From positions 96 to 64,095 of IMG/VR virus record IMGVR_UViG_2930414654_000002: 64,000 nt of DNA, one strand, 5' to 3'. The position numbers and the translations under genes were made by a program. Positions 12,568 through 63,593 of the stretch are shown here, piece by piece. Each line of letters starts with the position of its first letter. The stretch's first letter is position 1. Below the pieces are notes generated by a model, which saw nothing but the letters and a program-made list of their open reading frames with translations, did not search any database and was not told where the DNA came from. Origin of the DNA: a virus (lineage: Duplodnaviria > Caudoviricetes).

Positions 12568-13902
12568 GTGACCGACGAACACCTCGAGCGCACCCCACCC
12601 CAGGACCTCGACGCCGAACGCTGCACCCTCAAAGGGATGATCCTCGCCAAGAGGGCCATCAGCGCCGCCGTCGAAACCGTCGAAGCCGACGACTTCTACC
12701 GCCCCGCCCACGCCTCCCTGTTCCGCGCCATCACCGACCTCTACACCCGCACCGAACCCGTCGACCAGGTCACCCTCGCCAACTACCTCCGCGAGCTCGG
12801 CATCCTCGGCCAGGTCGGCGGCCCCTCCTACATCGGCGAGATCCTCAGCGCTGGCACCACCCCGGCCAACACCGGCTACTACGCCGAGATCGTCCGCGAC
12901 TGCGCCGTCCGCCGCCGCATCGTCGAAGCAGGCATCCGCATCACCCAGATCGGATTCAGCGGGGAAGGCGAAGCCAGCGAAGCCCACGACGCCGCCCAGG
13001 CCGAACTCGCCTCCGTCACCACCATCCGCGAGGAAGCCGACTGTGCTCTCCTCGGCGACGACCTCCACGAGGTAGCAGCCGAGCTGGAGCAGCTCGCCGC
13101 CGAGGGCCGCAGCATGGGCGTCCCCACCGGCTTCGCCGACCTCGACACCCTCCTGCACGGCCTCCACCCCGGGCAGATGGTCATCATCGCGGGCCGGCCC
13201 GGGCTCGGGAAGAGCACTCTGGGCGTGGACATGCTCCGGTCCTGCTCCATCCGCTACAACCGGCCCGCCGCCATGTTCAGCCTGGAGATGTCCCGCCGCG
13301 GCGTGCAGCACCGCATCATCTCCGCCGAAGCCCGCATCGGCCTGCACAAGATGCGCGGCGGCCAGATGGCCGACCAGGACTGGGCCGCGTTCGCCAACAC
13401 GCTGACCAAGCTTCAGCAGGCGCCGTTGACCATCGAGGCCACACCCAACCGCACCCTCACCCAGATCAAGGCACGCTGCCGACAGATCAAGCAGCAGACC
13501 GGCCTCGACCTGGTCCTCATCGACTACCTGCAGCTCGTCGAGACCAGCGGCCGACGGCGGGCCGAGAACCGGCAGCAGGAAGTCTCCGAACTCAGCCGCG
13601 GCATCAAGCTCATGGCCAAAGAGTTGGGCGTCCCCGTGGTGGTGCTGTGCCAGCTCAACCGCGGGCCCGAACAGCGCACCGACAAGAAGCCGCTGCTGTC
13701 CGACCTGCGGGAGTCCGGCTCGCTGGAGCAGGACGCCGACGTCGTGATCCTCCTCCACCGCGAGGACGCCTACGACCCGTACTCGCAGCGCGCCGGTGAA
13801 GCCGACGTCATCGTCGCCAAGCACCGCGACGGCCCCCAAGCCACGATCACCGTGGCGTTTCAAGGGCACTATAGCCGTTTTGTCGACATGGCGGCGACAT
13901 GA
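12568..13902 (+). CDS. dnaB: Replicative DNA helicase
   Basis: AGRPGLGKS Walker A, FSLEM, IDYLQL, QLNRG, DLRESGSLEQDAD, KHRDGP. Confidence 0.96.
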   Translation: MTDEHLERTPPQDLDAERCTLKGMILAKRAISAAVETVEADDFYRPAHASLFRAITDLYTRTEPVDQVTLANYLRELGILGQVGGPSYIGEILSAGTTPANTGYYAEIVRDCAVRRRIVEAGIRITQIGFSGEGEASEAHDAAQAELASVTTIREEADCALLGDDLHEVAAELEQLAAEGRSMGVPTGFADLDTLLHGLHPGQMVIIAGRPGLGKSTLGVDMLRSCSIRYNRPAAMFSLEMSRRGVQHRIISAEARIGLHKMRGGQMADQDWAAFANTLTKLQQAPLTIEATPNRTLTQIKARCRQIKQQTGLDLVLIDYLQLVETSGRRRAENRQQEVSELSRGIKLMAKELGVPVVVLCQLNRGPEQRTDKKPLLSDLRESGSLEQDADVVILLHREDAYDPYSQRAGEADVIVAKHRDGPQATITVAFQGHYSRFVDMAAT

Positions 13903-23003: not shown

Positions 23004-23405
23004 ATGAGCAGCAGTGTAGCCACGTCCGCCCCCGCCAGCTCGGGGGACCACCCCCGCCAGGCCGTCGCCTACGTCCGCGGTCAGCGTGTGATCGTCGACT
23101 GTCCGGCGTGGTGCACCGTCGTGCATGCCGCCCGGGACGAGTACTTCCTGGAGGACGTCTCCCACTCGTCCGACTCCCTGTCGGTTTCGGCGCCGGTGGG
23201 CGTGAGCCGCCGGGAGGACGTTCTGGTCGGGCACATCGCCGAGTGGTCGTTCGCCGGCGAGTCCCGCCCGAGGTTCGCGTTCGACGCGACGGGCTCCGGC
23301 GAGTTCTCCGAGCTGTCCAAGCACCAGGCGCGCGCCGAGCTGGACCGGATCGCCGCCCACGTCGAGCACCTGCGCCGCGTCGTCGACGCCATGCCCAGCG
23401 CCTGA
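23004..23405 (+). CDS. Hypothetical protein (DUF6907-like)
   Basis: AAGGAG RBS; CPAWC...H...DVSH. Confidence 0.7.
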   Translation: MSSSVATSAPASSGDHPRQAVAYVRGQRVIVDCPAWCTVVHAARDEYFLEDVSHSSDSLSVSAPVGVSRREDVLVGHIAEWSFAGESRPRFAFDATGSGEFSELSKHQARAELDRIAAHVEHLRRVVDAMPSA

Positions 23406-44279: not shown

Positions 44280-44354
44280 CCGGCCAGGCCCGCGCCGGAC
44301 CTGTAAGCCAACCCCGCCCGTGTGCGGGGTTTTCGCATGTTGGGAGACCCCCTG

Positions 44355-58031: not shown

Positions 58032-58190
58032 TCAGTTCTCCTTGTCGCCGTGCGCGTGGGAGAGGAGCCGGTGAAGCCCCCACGCCTCGGTGCTCGGCGC
58101 CAGCCCCAGCACGTCGCGGATCGCGTGCGCCTCTTCGTCGGTCAGTTCGACCGTCGTCGTGCCGTCCTTCTTGATGTCGACCAGTTTCAT
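58032..58190 (-). CDS. Small hypothetical protein (52 aa)
   Basis: AAGGAGG RBS; MKLVDIKKDGTTTVELTDEEAHAIRDVLG. Confidence 0.55.
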   Translation of the reverse strand: MKLVDIKKDGTTTVELTDEEAHAIRDVLGLAPSTEAWGLHRLLSHAHGDKEN

Positions 58191-58369
58191 GATGCGTCCT
58201 CCTTTTGTGGTTGTTGGGGGGTGTCCGTGGTGTCTTCCACGGGGGTGATGCGGGCGACGGGTTTCCCGTGGCGGGTGAGTGTGACGACCGCGCCGGTGTA
58301 GCGGACTTCGTTGACGAGGTCGCCGAGGGTCTTGCGGGCTTCCTCGATACCGACCTTCTTGCTCGACAT
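58187..58369 (-). CDS. Phd/YefM-family DNA-binding protein
   Basis: VGIEEARKTLGDLV..V......LTRHGKPVARITP. Confidence 0.85.
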   Translation of the reverse strand: MSSKKVGIEEARKTLGDLVNEVRYTGAVVTLTRHGKPVARITPVEDTTDTPQQPQKEDAS

Positions 58370-58453
58370 GTAAGGACCTTAAGGTTCTGTAGGTGTGGAG
58401 TCAAGGGAGCGTGCGGCAACACCGCCCGACGGAACGCCGGTTGATGCCACTTC

Positions 58454-58566
58454 GCCCCCGATAACATGCAATATCGCGGGCCCCGCTCCATCGGAGTGGG
58501 GTCCTTCGTCGTTGCCCGCGCGGGGGTGGCGATCAACCAACGGCATGGTTGATAATGCCAGTTATC
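58454..58566. other. res/dif-like recombination site
   Basis: Three dyads with 6-bp spacers: GCCCCCGATAA-CATGCA-ATATCGCGGGC, ATCAACCA-ACGGCA-TGGTTGAT and GATAA-TGCCAG-TTATC. Confidence 0.55.
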
Positions 58567-58589
58567 CTATACTGGCGAGAGAGGTGGAC

Positions 58590-58847
58590 ATGGCACAGGA
58601 CTGGATCTCGATGGACCGCCCGTCGGCGGCCATCTTGGAGTTCAAGCTGGAGGAGCGGCGCAAGAAGATCACCCAGGGACTTCTTCAGCAGCCTGACTAC
58701 CCGCCGCTGCCGGAGTGCCCGGAGTGCGGGGCGGCGAGCGAGGCGATCGTTGATCGGCGCGACATGGACGACGCAGTCCTCATCGGCTTCAAACCTTGCG
58801 GCCACCGCTTCCGCGCGGAGCCGCCGTCGCTGGACAGCTACCTGTGA
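58590..58847 (+). CDS. Zn-ribbon protein
   Basis: GAGG RBS; CPECG...PCGH. Confidence 0.65.
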   Translation: MAQDWISMDRPSAAILEFKLEERRKKITQGLLQQPDYPPLPECPECGAASEAIVDRRDMDDAVLIGFKPCGHRFRAEPPSLDSYL

Positions 58848-59872
58848 CCGCCCTCGTTCCGCGCCCGTCGGCGGAGCTGTCGACCGACCGGCACGACCCC
58901 CGCGACGACTGGCACAAGCTGGCCCGCAACCTCGCCAACGACCTCGCCGAGATCTACGGCAACGGCGACCCCCTACCGACCGCCGCCGGGGCATGGATCG
59001 CCCGCCAGAAGTCAGACCACACGAAGCGTGCCTACGCGCGAGCGTTCCGACGCTGGGAGAAGTACGCGCGCAGCACCGGCACCCACCCCCTTCAAGCGAG
59101 GCTCCCCCTCGCGGACGCCTACGCCAACAACGTCGCGAAGACGCCCGGCCGCCAGGGGAAACCGCCCCAGGACACCACGCTCGCACAGACACTCTCAGGC
59201 GCCGCCTCGTTCTACGACTACGCCATCGAGGTAGGGCTGACGGAGGCCAATCCGTTCAACCGTGTCCAGCGTCCCACCATCGACCCCGACTACAGCCCGA
59301 CGGAGGGCCTTACCGAGCAGGAGACCGCCCGGCTCATCGAAACCGCACGCGACTGGGCACCCCGCTCCTACGCCCTCGTCACCCTCCTCTACCTCACCGG
59401 CGCCCGCATCGACGAACTCCTCTCGCTGAACGCCAACCAGCTCGGCTACAACCGAGGACATCGCACCCTGCCCCTCACCCAGAAAGGCAACAAGAAGCGG
59501 CCCGCACCCATCCCACCGCTCGCCCTCGAAGCGCTCCTCGCCTACCTCGGCGACCGGGAAGACGGCCCGCTGTTCACCACCGAGTCCGGCCGCCGCTGGA
59601 CGCAGCCCGAAGCGTGGAAACACCTCCGCGTCCTCGCCCGCCAAGCCGGCCTCCCGCAAGCCGCCAGCATCAAACCCCACACATTGCGGCACCAGTTCAT
59701 CACCGACAACCTCGCCAACGGCGTCCCTTTGCAGGACGTGCAAGACGCCGTATCCCACACCGACCCGCGCACCACCCAGCGGTACAACCGGCGCCGCCGC
59801 CAACTCGACGACCATCCCGCCTACAGCCTCGCCGCGAAACTCGCCGCCAGACTCACCGAAGAGGAGAAGTGA
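58844..59872 (+). CDS. Second tyrosine recombinase (Xer/resolvase-like)
   Basis: TGARIDEL, KG.K, PHTLRH, SHTDPRTTQRY; no arm-binding domain evident. Confidence 0.92.
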   Translation: MTALVPRPSAELSTDRHDPRDDWHKLARNLANDLAEIYGNGDPLPTAAGAWIARQKSDHTKRAYARAFRRWEKYARSTGTHPLQARLPLADAYANNVAKTPGRQGKPPQDTTLAQTLSGAASFYDYAIEVGLTEANPFNRVQRPTIDPDYSPTEGLTEQETARLIETARDWAPRSYALVTLLYLTGARIDELLSLNANQLGYNRGHRTLPLTQKGNKKRPAPIPPLALEALLAYLGDREDGPLFTTESGRRWTQPEAWKHLRVLARQAGLPQAASIKPHTLRHQFITDNLANGVPLQDVQDAVSHTDPRTTQRYNRRRRQLDDHPAYSLAAKLAARLTEEEK

Positions 59873-60468: not shown

Positions 60469-61356
60469 TCACCGCCGCCAGACGTTCACCCGTTCAGTGG
60501 AGAGCAGTGGGGCGCCGTCCGGCCCCTTCACGTAGGCGGGAATCCACTGCTGCCGTCGCTGCTCACGGCCGGGTCCGTATGGCTGGTTGCGCCAGTGGCC
60601 AGAGACCACCCACCTGTGCCGGTAGGTGCGCCCATCAGTCTCTTCGTCGGGGTCCCGGTCCTGGGGCCGGTACTGGCGGCGCAGACTCACCAGCGTGACG
60701 CCTTCGTCGGGAAGCTGGGCGCGGCGCAGCGATCGGGCGTCCCGCTTGGGCGTCTCCTCACGGGCGCGGTCAACGAGTTGCGGCTGCTGCATGAGGTGCC
60801 ACGCGGCGGATAGCGCGGCGACGATGGTCCGGGAAGGACGCATCCCCTCCCTGGCGGGCAGATCGTCGAGGGAGACGGGGTCGGCGGTGACCGGGAGGCG
60901 TACTTCCCGGATGGCCAGCATTGGGGGGAAGCGCTGCACTACTTCCGGCGGCAGCCCGGCTCCCATGCGTTCCCGGGTGGCGAGGTGCCACACGATGAGT
61001 GTCTGCTCTGGCCCGGGTCCCCACGCAAGGGCATCGACGGGCCCTGATTGACCGGGCGCCATCTCCACCATGCTGAGACCACCGTTGAACACGAGGAGGC
61101 CGACAGGGCTGGGCCGGTCGACGGTGGCCCAGCGTGCTGCGGCGAGCTGCTGCCCGGCATGCATGGCCAGCGCGGTCATGTCGTCGGCGGCCCAATACAG
61201 GTCGGCTGCCCGCAGGTGCGTGGTGAAGAGCTGAACGAGGTTGTCGTCCCCGGGAAGCATGCCCTTGGGGAGGCCGTCGCCAGCTAGGGACAGTCGCTCA
61301 GTCGCGCGGATACTCTGGGCCCGTTTACGGGGCAGTTGTCGTGGCTGGATGGTCAC
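60469..61356 (-). CDS. Hypothetical phage protein with V.GHWR.Q motif
   Basis: GTGA-coupled to the Aca2-like gene; HRWVVSGHWRNQ...WIPAYVKGP. Confidence 0.7.
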   Translation of the reverse strand: MTIQPRQLPRKRAQSIRATERLSLAGDGLPKGMLPGDDNLVQLFTTHLRAADLYWAADDMTALAMHAGQQLAAARWATVDRPSPVGLLVFNGGLSMVEMAPGQSGPVDALAWGPGPEQTLIVWHLATRERMGAGLPPEVVQRFPPMLAIREVRLPVTADPVSLDDLPAREGMRPSRTIVAALSAAWHLMQQPQLVDRAREETPKRDARSLRRAQLPDEGVTLVSLRRQYRPQDRDPDEETDGRTYRHRWVVSGHWRNQPYGPGREQRRQQWIPAYVKGPDGAPLLSTERVNVWRR

Positions 61357-61772
61357 TGCTGCTGCTCCACGCTGTCGGCGTAGGCGATGGACAGGCCGGG
61401 CACCTCCTGGGCGATGCGGGCGATGACAGCGCGGTGCCAGGAGGCGGGGAACGGGATCTCGGGGTGGGCGGCGTGGTACTCGGCGTCGTCCCGGTAGGTG
61501 ACCACTCCCGGCTCGGGCAGGTCCATCAGTTTGCCGATCAGGCCGGACACGAACTCGCCGGTCCGCTGCTCCAGGTCCTCGATCTCCAGGCGGACTCCGT
61601 CGGGGATGGCGTACTTCCCTGCTTCCCAGTGGCGGACGGTGCGGGCGCTGACGCCGAGGTGTTGGGCGAGCCATTCGGGGGTGAAGCCGAGCCATTCGCG
61701 GACGACCCGCAACTCGGCCGGGGTCATGCGCTCGTCCTCCGGCATGCCGGGCGGATCGGTGTAGTCGGGCAT
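61353..61772 (-). CDS. Aca2/YdiL (DUF1870)-like HTH repressor
   Basis: MT..EL...R..LG.....A...GVSARTVRHWEAG...IPDGV..EI..L...Y.D..EY.A.HP...V.A.I; both the HTH and the C-terminal pattern fit Aca2. Confidence 0.8.
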   Translation of the reverse strand: MPDYTDPPGMPEDERMTPAELRVVREWLGFTPEWLAQHLGVSARTVRHWEAGKYAIPDGVRLEIEDLEQRTGEFVSGLIGKLMDLPEPGVVTYRDDAEYHAAHPEIPFPASWHRAVIARIAQEVPGLSIAYADSVEQQQ

Positions 61773-61827
61773 GGTGCCTCCAGGGTGAGGCCCCCGACCG
61801 GGCGGTCGGGGGCTGTGAGTGATGCGG

Positions 61828-62160
61828 TCAGGCGTTGTCGACGTCGTGGCGCTGGATGATCGCGAAGAGGTCGATGTCCTCGATGATCTCGCTGATGTTC
61901 AGCTCGCCCTCCCAGGTGTAGTCGGCGGGGTAGAAGGGGCCGAGGAAGTCGTTGCCCGCCAGGTGCACGCCCTCGGGCAGTGCGTTGTCGATGGCGTCGC
62001 GGTAGTCGGAGGCGATGCGGTCGAGCGCGCCGGACGTCTCCATGCGCTGCTGCCATTCGCTGTCGCCGCCGTTGATGGCGTCCAGGATGCTGGCCTCGAC
62101 GCTCACGTTGAAGCGGTCGCCGTGGTTGCACCAGGTGCCGTAGCCGGTGGTGGTGGTCAT
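61828..62160 (-). CDS. Small acidic protein, candidate anti-CRISPR/anti-defence
   Basis: 110 aa, about 21 D/E vs 5 R and no K; directly upstream of the aca2-like gene. Confidence 0.7.
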   Translation of the reverse strand: MTTTTGYGTWCNHGDRFNVSVEASILDAINGGDSEWQQRMETSGALDRIASDYRDAIDNALPEGVHLAGNDFLGPFYPADYTWEGELNISEIIEDIDLFAIIQRHDVDNA

Positions 62161-62201
62161 AGCTGTCCCCTTATTTCTCGGTTCGGATGTGTGCTGGTGG
62201 T

Positions 62202-62708
62202 TCAGAGGGCGGCGATGGCGCCGCGGATGCCGGAGACGACGGCGGCGAAGACCTCGTCGCGGTCGGCGACGCGGGACTCGCTCCAGCCGAAGCGGGCGTG
62301 GATCTTGCCGGTGGCGGCGTCGAACCACACCTTGTCGATGCAGCCGAGGAGCTTGCTCGCCTGGCTGTTGGAGATGCCTGCGCCCTGGTAGCTGGCGGAG
62401 GCGATGTTGCCGGTGTTGTAGTGGCTGGTCTCGATGCCCGCGAAGTGTGCCCAGTTGTTGATGTAGACGCGGTCGTGGCCGTTCTTCTGCCAGCGGTTGC
62501 CGCCGATGGCGGTCATGGTGTCGACGGTGAACTCGACTGTGCGGGCGGGCCGCTTGAGGGCGCCGATGGCGATGCGGGCGGCGAGGGAGGCGGAGTCGAT
62601 GACCCAGCGGCCGGCCTGCTTGACGGCGTTGATGGCTCCGTAGCGGCACCAGGTGCGGATGGTGGCGACGGTGACGTTGGCCTCGGCGGCGGCGGCGGTG
62701 GTGTTCAT
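62202..62708 (-). CDS. HTH-fused protein, candidate anti-defence
   Basis: N-terminal MerR/HTH_17-like (VTVATIRTWCRYG...GRWVID) plus a W.K.G..RVY.N domain; first gene of the operon. Confidence 0.75.
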   Translation of the reverse strand: MNTTAAAAEANVTVATIRTWCRYGAINAVKQAGRWVIDSASLAARIAIGALKRPARTVEFTVDTMTAIGGNRWQKNGHDRVYINNWAHFAGIETSHYNTGNIASASYQGAGISNSQASKLLGCIDKVWFDAATGKIHARFGWSESRVADRDEVFAAVVSGIRGAIAAL

Positions 62709-62762
62709 CGACCGGTTCCTTCCGGCGGGGTCTGGGGCTGTTCCCCTGACCTCATGACAACC

Positions 62763-62791
62763 ACAGTAGCTTCCAAATGTGGAAGGCGCAA
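62763..62791 (-). promoter_or_regulatory. Sigma70-type promoter with an operator palindrome in the spacer
   Basis: TTGCGC-N17-TACTGT; the spacer holds CTTCCA-N4-TGGAAG (62770-62785). Confidence 0.7.
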
Positions 62792-62832
62792 GGGGTCTCC
62801 GTGACTCCCCTCTGCCTGTGCCATACTCAGCG

Positions 62833-63000
62833 AGCCACCGCCTGTGTGAGGCGCGCAGCCCGTTTTCTCCTTGAGTGACTGCGGTTGCCTACCTGCACGC
62901 GCAGGCCTGGTGTGCGTCGGCTCTTGCATGGTGCCCGGCGCCTGCTCCCCGCCACTGCGGGGCTAGCGTCAAGCCTCCGCCACACAGGCGGAGGCTTTCG
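62833..63000 (+). ncRNA. Putative small RNA with type I-E CRISPR-repeat-like unit(s)
   Basis: -10-like CATACT at 62822; repeat-like CTGCTCCCCGC-CACT-GCGGGG-CTAGCGTC (62942-62970); terminator AAGCCTCCGCC-ACACA-GGCGGAGGCTT (62971-62997). Confidence 0.5.
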
Positions 63001-63158
63001 CACGTTCACGAACCGCCGGGGGTCCGCACCGCATCCCGAGCCCCCGCCGCTTGTCACCGGGCCCTGTCACACTGGGTGCATCACATCCATCATGCTGGCT
63101 GCATGTGGACGGACGGCCCCGCTACAGCGCAGCGGGGCCGGATCCGTAAGGAGAGGCA

Positions 63159-63593
63159 ATGGGCGACCTGGTGGCGTTCCTGCGGGCACGGATCGACGAG
63201 GAGGCTGAGGAAGCTCGCGCGGCTGCGGAGAAGGCCGGTTCCGGGGACTGGCGGTTCAAGGACGACGACGACTGCGTGTCCGCCGTCGACACCAACGAAC
63301 GCGCCGCCACGGACGCACCGACCTACGCCCGCGAACACTGGATGCCGCTCGTTACCGAAGCCAGCTCCTACATCGGCGACACGATCGACAACGAGATCGG
63401 CCGCTTCATCGCCCGCCACGATCCGACCCGCGTCCTCGCCGAGGTTGCTGCCAAGCGGCGTATCCTCCGGTGGCACCTCGACGAAGAGTGCTGTTCCGTC
63501 TGCCTCGACGACGTCGAAGGATGCCCGCTGTTCCGGGCCCTCGCCCTGCCCTACGCGGGTCACCCCGACTACCGCGAGGAGCGGCGGCCATGA
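63159..63593 (+). CDS. DUF6221-like phage protein
   Basis: LVAFLRARIDEE...IARHDP.RVLAEV.AKR.I...LALPYA.HPDY. Confidence 0.8.
   Translation: MGDLVAFLRARIDEEAEEARAAAEKAGSGDWRFKDDDDCVSAVDTNERAATDAPTYAREHWMPLVTEASSYIGDTIDNEIGRFIARHDPTRVLAEVAAKRRILRWHLDEECCSVCLDDVEGCPLFRALALPYAGHPDYREERRP

What the first reader, a model, noticed from the sequence alone, without database searches (positions are those of the whole stretch)
62822..63000. crRNA-mimic small RNA (type I-E repeat-like unit) divergent from an Aca2-type operon
Seen: 62942-62970 (CTGCTCCCCGC CACT GCGGGG CTAGCGTC) has the 29-nt, 11+4+6+8 layout of actinobacterial type I-E repeats (CTGCTCCCCGC-NNNN-GCGGGG-ATGGTCCC type). A second, degenerate 4-nt-loop hairpin lies 56 nt upstream (CCTGC-ACGC-GCAGG, followed by a handle-like CTGGTGTG; ~62886-62914), leaving a 27-nt spacer. 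The unit sits between a -10-like CATACT and a perfect 11-bp terminator stem, with no cas genes in the window. Known: phages carry solitary repeat units that act as RNA anti-CRISPRs (Racr), often near acr-aca loci, and degenerate-repeat/short-spacer/repeat RNAs (CreA-like) redirect Cascade to repress promoters. Inference: this is a Streptomyces phage RNA that jams or reprograms host I-E Cascade, paired with protein Acrs at one divergent promoter.
Basis: partly seen in the sequence, partly recalled or inferred. Interest (0 to 1): 0.9.

Follow-up and report, generated by a model that had tools for sequence, protein, structure and literature searches.

The report
Repeat-like small RNA in Streptomyces provirus
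A Streptomyces provirus carries a short promoter-to-terminator unit that ends in a hairpin copied from type I-E CRISPR repeats; it is most likely a decoy RNA against CRISPR immunity, a kind of element already described in other bacteria.

Summary
The main observation holds. At 62942-62962 there is an exact copy of the first 21 nt (5' flank plus 6-bp hairpin) of the commonest Streptomycetaceae type I-E repeat. A strong 11-bp hairpin follows it. It lies in a provirus without cas genes, divergent from an operon that includes an Aca2/YdiL-like regulator.

On its own the unit is not significant: two repeat covariance models give E about 1.3-1.5 per window, and its last 8 nt do not match the repeat handle.

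Context gives the support. The same flank plus hairpin is 6-13 times commoner in viral contigs than two permuted-flank controls. In 29 of 52 viral loci found by the motif it is part of short I-E-like mini-arrays: a conserved -10 box, 0-4 units, a terminal unit with a degenerate handle, then a terminator. The window has that box exactly once, 123 nt upstream on the same strand. Seven independent motif-found loci carry homologues of the window's operon genes within 1.2 kb of the unit.

The proposed upstream "degenerate repeat" and 27-nt "spacer" are not supported. Their similarity is at chance level and I found no target.

Best reading: a solitary-repeat (Racr-like) small RNA, a new member of a known kind. 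No RNA data exist.

The parts
62817..62827 (+). Promoter box TGTGCCATACT (extended -10; CATACT at 62822-62827). Predicted start of the small RNA is about 62834 (inferred).
   Evidence: The motif TG[CT][CG]ATA[GC]T occurs once in the window, at 62819. In 953,194 nt of viral loci it occurs 18 times, and 12 of those lie within 200 nt upstream of a repeat-like unit on the same strand; 2 of the 12 are the close relative.
62842..62867 (+). Weak hairpin (7 pairs, 2 of them G-U) followed by a T-run. It looks like an early terminator or attenuator just after the predicted start.
   Evidence: It is the only terminator-like site called in 62600-63250. In L017 both changes in the 3' arm (G62853A, C62854T) keep pairing.
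62885..62914 (+). I read it as an unproven hairpin, not an established repeat.
   Evidence: 16 of 24 identity to host repeats, matched or beaten by 414 window positions. 9.9 bits, E 5.1 with model R1; not listed with R2. z -0.71, and not formed in context.
62915..62941 (+). 27-nt interval proposed as a spacer. No target found.
   Evidence: It differs at 4 of 27 positions in the relative L017.
62942..62970 (+). Solitary I-E repeat-like unit. Flank CTGCT (62942-62946), stem 62947-62952/62957-62962, loop CACT, then a non-canonical 8 nt, CTAGCGTC.
   Evidence: Fold -14.8 kcal/mol, z -2.57. Identical in L017/L079.
62971..62999 (+). Terminator-type hairpin (11-bp stem, loop ACACA) followed by TC. 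It has only a short T-run.
   Evidence: The consensus scanner did not call it because it lacks a T-tract. In family members a GC hairpin also follows the terminal unit.
62710..62794 (-). Conserved leader/operator of about 85 nt for the leftward operon. It holds the palindrome CTTCCA-N4-TGGAAG and the ribosome-binding site. It is a neighbour of the RNA cassette, not part of it.
   Evidence: The same element lies upstream of small-gene plus DUF1870/Aca2-like pairs in Streptomyces phage Gilgamesh, Thermobifida phage P1312 and Streptomyces plasmids, and in IMG/VR loci.
61353..62708 (-). Leftward operon: HTH_17 protein, acidic 110-aa orphan, Aca2_YdiL-like regulator.
   Evidence: The module is 93.7% identical over 1.8 kb in L017.

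Best explanation
The segment from about 62817 to 63000 is a small non-coding RNA gene on the + strand. It has a conserved extended -10 box, a structured 5' part of about 108 nt, one unit copied from the 5' 21 nt of Streptomyces type I-E CRISPR repeats (flank CUGCU plus a 6-bp hairpin), and a strong terminator hairpin.

It belongs to a family of I-E repeat-derived cassettes carried by Streptomyces phages, proviruses and plasmids. In this copy only the terminal, handle-less unit is recognisable.

The most likely action (inferred, not shown) is that of a solitary-repeat RNA anti-CRISPR (Racr-like). The hairpin is bound, and perhaps cut after G62962, by host Cas6e. The RNA has no proper 5' handle, so it ties up Cas6e, and possibly Cas7, in unproductive complexes and lowers I-E interference against the element.

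What is shown: the sequence anatomy, the family resemblance and the gene neighbourhood. What is inferred: transcription, Cas6e binding and inhibition.
For: 1. Match to host repeats. The flank plus hairpin is identical to the commonest class of host repeats: 18 of 43 distinct Streptomycetaceae I-E consensus repeats start CTGCT, and the stem is near-invariant. It is the unique best 21-nt match in the window (19 of 21).
2. Enrichment over controls. The 17-base pattern gives 52 IMG/VR loci, against 4 and 8 loci for two same-composition permuted flanks.
3. Family architecture. Of the 52 loci, 5 are true arrays and 29 hold clusters of 2-8 units. Their layout is box, units, a terminal unit with a degenerate handle, then a GC terminator. 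With the host model, two of the terminal units in those mini-arrays score 13.4 and 18.6 bits, and the solitary unit of L008 scores 21.4; the window scores 11.4.
4. The promoter box occurs once in the window, 123 nt upstream on the same strand.
5. Neighbourhood. Seven independent loci found only by the motif carry homologues of the window's operon genes within 1.2 kb of the unit. Aca2-like: L008, L019, L023, L031. Acidic protein: L008, L038. HTH_17: L014, L019, L052. L008 has the same divergent layout with a solitary unit.
6. Conservation. The unit, terminator and downstream 150 nt differ at 1 position in 62931-63154 from the relative, against 17 substitutions plus 1 indel in 62779-62930.
7. 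A host for the RNA to act on. The genome that holds the relative (G001) has an I-E cas locus with arrays. Cse1 was found in 147 of 301 Streptomycetaceae genomes.
8. Precedent. Racrs, including two type I-E ones, are experimentally shown in other bacteria and often lie near acr/aca genes (PMC10651486).
Against: - Whole-repeat models do not separate the unit from other GC hairpins in this window (E 1.5 and 1.3; another hairpin at 44308-44329 scores higher).
- The 8-nt 3' part misses the invariant G24 and C28 and the near-invariant C27.
- Only one relative carries the region, and it is 97% identical, so there is no informative covariation.
- That relative's host has repeats with flank GTCGA, not CTGCT.
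- Unbiased sampling shows the association is loose. None of 15 independent Aca2-homologue loci has a unit. Only L054, of the 12 HTH_17-homologue loci left after setting aside the L017 element (L053, L067) and the Myxococcota MAG hit L073, has one upstream.
- A terminator-like hairpin lies only about 10 nt after the predicted start.
- The tight conservation extends 150 nt past the unit, so it may reflect the rightward promoter or a recent recombination tract.
Confidence: 0.4

Rival explanations
1. Guide RNA (Cracr/CreR-like). Units at 62885-62914 and 62942-62970 flank a 27-nt pseudo-spacer. Cas6e would release a 56-nt crRNA-like RNA that loads a Cascade short of one Cas7 and directs it to bind, and silence, a host or rival-element target.
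For: - The family contains real two-unit arrays of this layout (for example L002 and L026).
- Viral pseudo-spacer lengths cluster at 18-22 nt (29 of 51), 26-27 nt (3) and 30-33 nt (16), that is in steps of about 6 nt.
- Shortened I-E spacers assemble Cascades with fewer Cas7 subunits (PMC5159557, abstract).
- Viral I-E crlRNA arrays with 21-24-nt pseudo-spacers silence cas promoters (preprint 10.1101/2024.10.29.618823; abstract, section 7 and passages).
- In L017 the 8 nt after the first hairpin read GTGGTGCG, 7 of 8 to a host handle.
Against: - The upstream unit is at chance level, its base pair next to the expected cut site is an A/C mismatch, and it is not formed in the context fold.
- The best match of the 27-mer in 42 host I-E loci is 13 of 15 scored positions, reached by 97.5% of 200 shuffles.
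- No self-target and no significant hit in phages or plasmids.
- The 5 collection hits are one low-GC (46%) virus sequence.
- In 301 genomes there were 5 hits with one mismatch against 1 for the reversed control, none exact, all in unrelated coding sequence.
- L017 differs at pseudo-spacer positions 7, 11, 15 and 16.
Confidence: 0.15
2. Ordinary GC-rich hairpins. A terminator or insulator pair sits between divergent transcription units, and its first stem happens to carry CTGCT on its 5' side.
For: - CM E-values near 1.
- The permuted-flank controls show that 4-8 chance loci are expected in IMG/VR.
- A perfect 14 of 14 match to the repeat's 3' half occurs by chance inside a coding region at about 23044-23057.
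- No Rfam family.
- The region is private to two elements.
Against: - The single window copy of the family's -10 box lies 123 nt upstream on the same strand. By my arithmetic the chance is about 0.001-0.004, from the rates.
- The layout and neighbourhood are the same as in L008, L023, L025 and L026.
- There is 6-13-fold enrichment over the controls.
Confidence: 0.2
3. Decayed remnant of a mini-array. It has lost anti-CRISPR function and now serves, if anything, as part of a long leader/attenuator for the rightward DUF6221 operon.
For: - It is the weakest unit of the family (11.4 bits against 13-31).
- There is no canonical internal unit.
- An 11-mer (62838-62848) is the exact inverted copy of the terminator loop plus 3' arm (62981-62991), so an anti-terminator pairing is possible (used in the minus-strand fold).
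- Near-perfect conservation runs from 62931 to the DUF6221 ribosome-binding site.
- A third hairpin with the same CCCCGC/GCGGGG stem lies at 63115-63139, just before that site.
Against: - The flank and stem are intact and identical in two elements whose neighbouring genes are about 6% diverged.
- L008 shows that a solitary unit with a leader is a recurrent form, not only a decay product.
Confidence: 0.2

Closest known systems
Racr, RNA anti-CRISPRs made of solitary repeat units (Camara-Wilpert et al. 2023, PMC10651486; abstract and passages read)
   Same: A solitary unit that mimics the host-type repeat hairpin. It lies on a mobile element without cas genes, behind a promoter and next to an aca-like regulator gene.
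   Different: - Tested Racrs come from Pseudomonadota, and the I-E ones were tested in P. aeruginosa. This one is from a Streptomyces provirus.
- Only 21 of its 29 nt resemble the repeat.
- It has a long structured 5' part and its own terminator.
- No binding or inhibition data exist.
Cracr, viral crRNA-like regulatory RNAs and Cracr arrays (Liu et al. preprint 10.1101/2024.10.29.618823; abstract, section 7 and passages read); viral regulatory mini-arrays (Shmakov et al. preprint 10.1101/2023.03.03.530964; section 26 read)
   Same: The surrounding family in Streptomyces elements looks like these: degenerate repeats, short pseudo-spacers, multi-spacer arrays and a place in anti-defence loci.
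   Different: - In the window the first repeat is not demonstrable.
- The defining match of the pseudo-spacer to a host CreR spacer or cas promoter was looked for and not found.
- 'Streptomyces' does not occur in the main text of either paper. The first says only that Actinomycetota are among the phyla.
Host CreR/CreA mini-arrays inside I-E cas loci
   Same: Same repeat family. A candidate with a 20-nt pseudo-spacer lies between cas3 and cse1 of G001.
   Different: Those lie inside cas loci and match a nearby promoter. The window's unit is on a provirus and has no matching target.
Virus-borne mini-CRISPR arrays used in conflicts between viruses (Medvedeva et al. 2019, PMC6858448; search listing and abstract start only)
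   Same: Repeat units on a virus without cas genes.
   Different: Those carry full-length spacers that match rival viruses. No such match was found here.

Membership tests
Racr (solitary-repeat RNA anti-CRISPR) | A solitary unit similar in sequence and hairpin to the CRISPR repeat of a system in the host range | tested here: inconclusive
   19 of 21 for flank plus hairpin, the unique best in the window, and 22 of 29 overall. Whole-repeat CM E 1.3-1.5. 52 loci against 4 and 8 control loci in IMG/VR.
Racr (solitary-repeat RNA anti-CRISPR) | [quoted passage not shown] | tested here: met
   Provirus record, CheckV 100%, no Cas6e-family match. Only that cas family was searched. No other repeat copy in the window.
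Racr (solitary-repeat RNA anti-CRISPR) | Lies just downstream of a predicted promoter | tested here: met
   The family -10 box is at 62817-62827. The generic sigma-70 scan found none. The distance to the unit is 115 nt, longer than 'immediately'.
Racr (solitary-repeat RNA anti-CRISPR) | Genetic context of acr/aca genes | tested here: inconclusive
   An Aca2_YdiL-like gene lies 1.2 kb away in the divergent operon. No known Acr was recognised. 0 of 15 independent Aca2-homologue loci carry a unit.
Racr (solitary-repeat RNA anti-CRISPR) | Binds Cas6 (and Cas7) and inhibits interference | not testable with these tools
   No RNA run holds the region. Needs bench work.
Cracr / viral crlRNA | Pseudo-repeat, pseudo-spacer, pseudo-repeat unit | tested here: not met
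   The upstream unit is at chance level and is not folded in context.
Cracr / viral crlRNA | At least 9 PAM-proximal bases of the pseudo-spacer shared with a host CreR/CreA spacer or cas/creT promoter | tested here: not met
   In 42 host I-E loci the best match is 13 of 15, equalled by 97.5% of shuffles, with no positional clustering above shuffles. Only the sampled loci were tested.
CRISPR array | Three or more regularly spaced near-identical repeats with unique spacers | tested here: not met
   One exact unit in the window. The other 4 matches, each with 3 mismatches, are scattered; 2.4 are expected by chance.
I-E repeat-derived cassettes of Streptomyces mobile elements (family delimited here) | A -10 box TG[CT][CG]ATA[GC]T or GCTAC[AG]GT, then units, then a terminal CTGCT-hairpin unit with a degenerate handle, then a GC terminator | tested here: met
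   Box, terminal unit and terminator. Internal canonical units are absent, as in L008.

The most novel reading that the evidence does not exclude
The cassette is one member of a large, so far uncharacterised Streptomyces family of mobile-element guide RNAs. Their short pseudo-spacers (about 20/21, 26/27 and 32/33 nt, that is Cascades built with 4, 5 or 6 Cas7) aim host Cascade at conserved coding sequence of the host's own cas genes rather than at promoters. Examples: the L002 pseudo-spacer against the cas7 N-terminal codons in 41 of 41 host loci, and the L004 pseudo-spacer against the cas3 HD domain. On this reading the window's 27-mer is such a guide, and its target lies in a host or rival element that I did not sample.
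Probability: 0.15. Interest if true: 0.75.

Novelty: new member of a known kind. Interest (0 to 1): 0.5.

Why it matters
- If the RNA binds Cas6e, it would be a type I-E RNA anti-CRISPR candidate from Streptomyces. My two full-text searches turned up no tested RNA anti-CRISPR from Streptomyces, and that name is absent from the main texts of the Cracr and Shmakov preprints; in the search listing the Racr paper also shows no occurrence.
- I-E systems are common in this group (Cse1 in 147 of 301 genomes) and affect phage work and genome engineering there.
- The comparison set gives dozens of better-preserved relatives, with clear handles and short pseudo-spacers, that would be stronger first candidates for testing than this degenerate copy.

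Tried and rejected
- Rfam: 0 matches at gathering score over the window; 3 chance-level matches (E 2.5-6.8) in 62600-63300.
- tRNA/tmRNA: none in the window, so no tRNA-derived att site.
- Small ORFs. The - strand 74-aa frame (62705-62929) is broken by the L017 indel at 62859. In the + frames that start at 62875 and 62885, the L017 differences fall mostly on codon positions 1 and 2 (my reading). Coding rejected.
- Relatives of the region. blastn of 62709-63158 against plasmids and phages found only the first 86 nt. Soil-metagenome contigs (X3-X5) cover only the HTH_17 gene and diverge at 62708-62710.
- RNA evidence: no RNA holder listed.
- Target searches for the 27-mer. The 20 of 27 match upstream of a G001 array looked attractive but is at shuffle level.
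- 'Anti-repeat' idea. The 85-nt leader contains GGGGCTGTTCCC, 13 of 14 to a host repeat's 3' half, and the CM hits it in six Aca2 loci. A 14 of 14 match inside a coding region of the same window shows that such matches occur by chance. Left as a note only.
- Known Acr identity of the neighbouring proteins: no Pfam or PHROG family for the acidic protein, only a sub-threshold HTH_17 Pfam match (23.4 bits against a cut-off of 27) and no PHROG family for the HTH_17 protein, and no PDB relative of the acidic protein at a meaningful E-value.
- Supplementary tables of the three key papers were closed. They may already list some of the IMG/VR contigs used here.

Full report
WHAT IS THERE

The window is almost the whole of a 64,095-bp record that the tools class as a provirus, estimated complete.

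Between the leftward gene that starts at 62708 and the rightward DUF6221 gene that starts at 63159 lies a 450-nt non-coding stretch. Reading the + strand, it contains:
- a conserved leader of about 85 nt for the leftward operon (62710-62794);
- TGTGCCATACT (62817-62827);
- a weak hairpin with a T-run (62842-62867);
- a 5-bp hairpin (62892-62905);
- the unit CTGCTCCCCGC-CACT-GCGGGG-CTAGCGTC (62942-62970);
- an 11-bp perfect hairpin (62971-62997);
- about 150 nt that end in a third hairpin (63115-63139) just before the DUF6221 ribosome-binding site.

The leftward operon encodes an HTH_17 protein, an acidic 110-aa orphan and an Aca2_YdiL/HTH_31 protein. An integrase and a Phd/YefM antitoxin lie 3-4 kb further left. 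There is no Rfam family, no tRNA and no Cas6e.

IS THE REPEAT LIKENESS REAL?

I took real repeats from data, not from memory. I used two sets: 22 repeats from arrays in IMG/VR loci (alignment A2), and 43 distinct consensus repeats from arrays in 42 Streptomycetaceae I-E loci (A3).

In the host set the stem CCCCGC/GCGGGG is nearly invariant. The 5' flank is CTGCT in 18 of 43. The last 8 nt follow xTGxxCCC, with T23, G24 and C28 invariant.

The window unit equals the commonest class over its first 21 nt apart from the loop. It is the single best 21-nt match in the window (19 of 21; next best 17). Its last 8 nt keep only T23.

For that reason, covariance models of the whole repeat give 12.8 bits (E 1.5) and 11.4 bits (E 1.3). 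Another hairpin in the window scores higher. Taken alone, the unit is not beyond chance.

- 16 of 24 identity, shared by 414 window positions;
- no listing with the host model;
- a fold no better than shuffles, and replaced by another pairing in context.

WHAT THE CONTEXT ADDS

1. Enrichment over controls. An exact scan of IMG/VR for the flank plus hairpin found 52 loci. Two controls with the same five flank letters permuted found 4 and 8.

2. What the 52 loci are:
- 5 are true arrays with a 61-nt period.
- 11 are one coding-sequence family.
- 29 hold clusters of 2-8 I-E-like units.
- 7 are solitary, among them the relative L017 and also L008.

The clusters share one plan: a -10 box (gTGCCATAGTgg or gCTACAGTg), units with good handles separated by short intervals, a last unit whose handle is degenerate (for example TTACGAxx), a GC hairpin, and often CTTCGTCGT.

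3. The promoter box. TG[CT][CG]ATA[GC]T is rare: 18 occurrences in 953 kb of these loci. Of those, 12 lie within 200 nt upstream of a unit on the same strand, and 2 of the 12 are the relative. The window has the box exactly once, at 62819, 123 nt upstream of the unit on the same strand. From those rates I estimate the chance of this at about 0.001-0.004 (my arithmetic).

4. Neighbourhood. Loci found only through the motif carry homologues of the window's operon genes within 1.2 kb of the unit:
- Aca2-like in L008 (72%), L023, L031 and L019;
- the acidic protein in L008 and L038;
- HTH_17 in L019, L052 and L014.

L008 has the same divergent layout, the same 85-nt leader and a solitary unit with a 60-nt 5' part.

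LIMITS OF THAT SUPPORT

Starting from the proteins instead of the motif, the link is loose.
- Among 16 viral loci with an Aca2 homologue (15 independent of L017), none has a unit. The CM hits there fall in the 85-nt leader.
- Among the 15 loci found with HTH_17, I set aside L053 and L067 (the L017 element) and the Myxococcota MAG hit L073. Of the remaining 12, only L054 has units upstream.

So the cassette is occasional cargo beside this module, not a fixed part of it.

Only one other element carries the window's version (L017, and the identical stretch L079 in genome G001). It is 97% identical there, which is too close for covariation. Soil contigs related to the HTH_17 gene diverge exactly at its start codon.

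Differences from the relative are uneven: 17 substitutions and 1 indel in 62779-62930, against 1 in 62931-63154. This favours constraint or a recent exchange. However, the quiet tract runs well past the unit.

HOST SIDE

G001, the genome that holds the relative, has an I-E cas locus with two arrays. Their repeat has flank GTCGA but the same stem. It also has a CreR-like mini-array between cas3 and cse1 with a 20-nt pseudo-spacer. Cse1 was found in 147 of 301 sampled Streptomycetaceae genomes. So an I-E machinery for the RNA to act on is common and is present in at least this host.

GUIDE OR DECOY?

The published viral guides (Cracr) are defined by a pseudo-spacer that shares at least 9 PAM-proximal bases with a host CreR/CreA spacer or its promoter target.

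I scored the window's 27-mer and L017's version against both strands of 42 host I-E loci, ignoring every sixth base. The best match was 13 of 15, which 97.5% and 96% of 200 shuffles reach. There was no positional clustering above shuffles.

Other searches also found nothing:
- No self-target.
- No significant match in the phage or plasmid collections.
- Five hits in IMG/VR and metagenome contigs are one sequence of a 46%-GC virus.
- In 301 genomes there were five one-mismatch hits against one for the reversed control, all in unrelated coding regions.

The method can find targets. With the same scoring, the L002 pseudo-spacer hits the cas7 N-terminal codons in 41 of 41 loci, and the L004 pseudo-spacer hits the cas3 HD domain with 19 of 21 in L136.

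I therefore rank the decoy (Racr-like) reading above the guide reading.

MECHANISM PROPOSED

Shown: the anatomy and the family resemblance.

Inferred:
- Transcription starts near 62834 and ends at the 62971-62997 hairpin.
- Host Cas6e recognises the CUGCU-flanked 6-bp hairpin and may cut after G62962.
- The product has no 5' handle, so it cannot seed a proper Cascade and instead holds Cas6e, and perhaps Cas7, away from real crRNAs. This is what was reported for a type I-F Racr.

The early hairpin with a T-run (62842-62867), and the 11-mer at 62838-62848 that is the inverted copy of part of the terminator, leave room for regulated read-through. That is the basis of the leader/attenuator rival.

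COMPARISON AND NOVELTY

Solitary-repeat RNA anti-CRISPRs, viral regulatory mini-arrays and viral crRNA-like guides are all in print or preprint. This finding is therefore a new member of a known kind, and a degenerate one.

'Streptomyces' does not occur in the main text of the Cracr or Shmakov preprints; for the Racr paper I have only the search listing, which shows no occurrence. The Cracr preprint lists Actinomycetota among the target phyla. Its tables, which I could not open, may include some of these contigs.

The better-preserved relatives found on the way are more interesting than the window's copy.

VERDICT

My odds:
- Repeat-derived and homologous to the family: about 0.8.
- Racr-like decoy: 0.4.
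- Ordinary hairpin: 0.2.
- Remnant or leader: 0.2.
- Guide: 0.15.

Interest: 0.5.

Noticed in passing
IMG/VR loci L001-L052 (for example L025:1567-1691, L026:2696-2785, L019:3830-4060, L004:4015-4241, L052:9996-10175): A large family of I-E repeat-derived mini-arrays on Streptomyces-like viral contigs. It has a shared -10 box and a terminal handle-less unit followed by a terminator. Pseudo-spacer lengths cluster at 18-22 nt (29 of 51), 26-27 nt (3) and 30-33 nt (16), which suggests steps of one Cas7.
   Followed up: partly
L002 (minus strand, unit at about 666-686 and the one before it); host loci L121-L160, about 2.4 kb after the cse1 start: The 21-nt pseudo-spacer of L002 matches the cas7 codons for NLNRDDTG in 41 of 41 host I-E loci (at least 11 of 15 scored positions). 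In 7 loci it matches 15 of 15, with mismatches in the first 18 nt only at positions 6 and 12. The flanking triplet is AAC in 35 loci and AAT in 5. This is a viral guide aimed at cas coding sequence rather than a promoter.
   Followed up: partly
L004 (third pseudo-spacer) and L136:5322-5342: The pseudo-spacer CCTGTCAGGTCGATCGGATCG matches 19 of 21 to the cas3 HD-domain coding region just after the HDVGK codons. At least 11 of 15 positions match in 16 of 41 host loci, and the flanking triplet is TCG in 11 of those 16.
   Followed up: partly
L019:3969-3988, and similar in L031, L016, L024, L038, L032, L052: A pseudo-spacer family conserved in its first 13 nt or so (GATTCCAGGGGCGTG-like) recurs in different viral contigs. 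A second family is GATGCGCATGACGAC-like. I found no convincing target in the 42 host loci; the best was 14 of 15 in L132, outside the cas operon.
   Followed up: partly
window 62710-62794 (- strand leader); Gilgamesh L061:1501-1575; plasmid loci L062, L065; IMG/VR L185-L198: A conserved element of about 85 nt directly upstream of small-gene plus DUF1870/Aca2-like operons in Streptomyces phage Gilgamesh, Thermobifida phage P1312, several plasmids of about 90 kb and many viral contigs. It holds a palindrome (CTTCCA-N4-TGGAAG; a perfect 20-mer in L008) and the ribosome-binding site in a small hairpin, so it is probably the Aca2 operator and leader. It also contains GGGGCTGTTCCC, identical to the 3' end of one host repeat class, but a chance 14 of 14 match elsewhere in the window argues for caution.
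   Followed up: partly
L089 about 12590-12670 (G001, between cas3 and cse1): A host CreR-like mini-array read on the strand opposite to the cas genes: handle ATGACCCG, a 20-nt pseudo-spacer, then a repeat-like unit. Eleven PAM-proximal bases reappear next to the cse1 start, with mismatches at positions 6 and 12.
   Followed up: no
window 63115-63139: A third hairpin, GGCCCCGC-N9-GCGGGGCC, has the same inner stem as the repeat. It lies 20 nt before the DUF6221 start codon, and its loop contains GCTACAGCG, close to the family's second -10 box. It is fully conserved in L017.
   Followed up: no
window 62838-62848 and 62981-62991: An exact 11-nt inverted repeat joins the region just after the predicted RNA start with the loop and 3' arm of the terminator, so an anti-terminator pairing is possible.
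   Followed up: no
host loci (for example L091-L095): Many Cse1 matches lie in open frames of about 1,550-1,690 aa, which suggests cas3-cse1 fusions. In such loci, candidate CreR-like units lie upstream of cas3 (for example L150, L153, L159).
   Followed up: no
window 58032-59872: A tyrosine integrase (58796-59872) and a Phd/YefM-type antitoxin (58187-58369), with a small downstream ORF, lie near the right end of the provirus.
   Followed up: no
L054:2331-2410 and L052:9996-10175: In two HTH_17 homologue loci the mini-array lies directly upstream of the HTH_17 gene and in the same direction, followed by TTTTCAGTATTGACAACC. In the window it is divergent. The cassette is therefore placed in either orientation beside this gene.
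   Followed up: no
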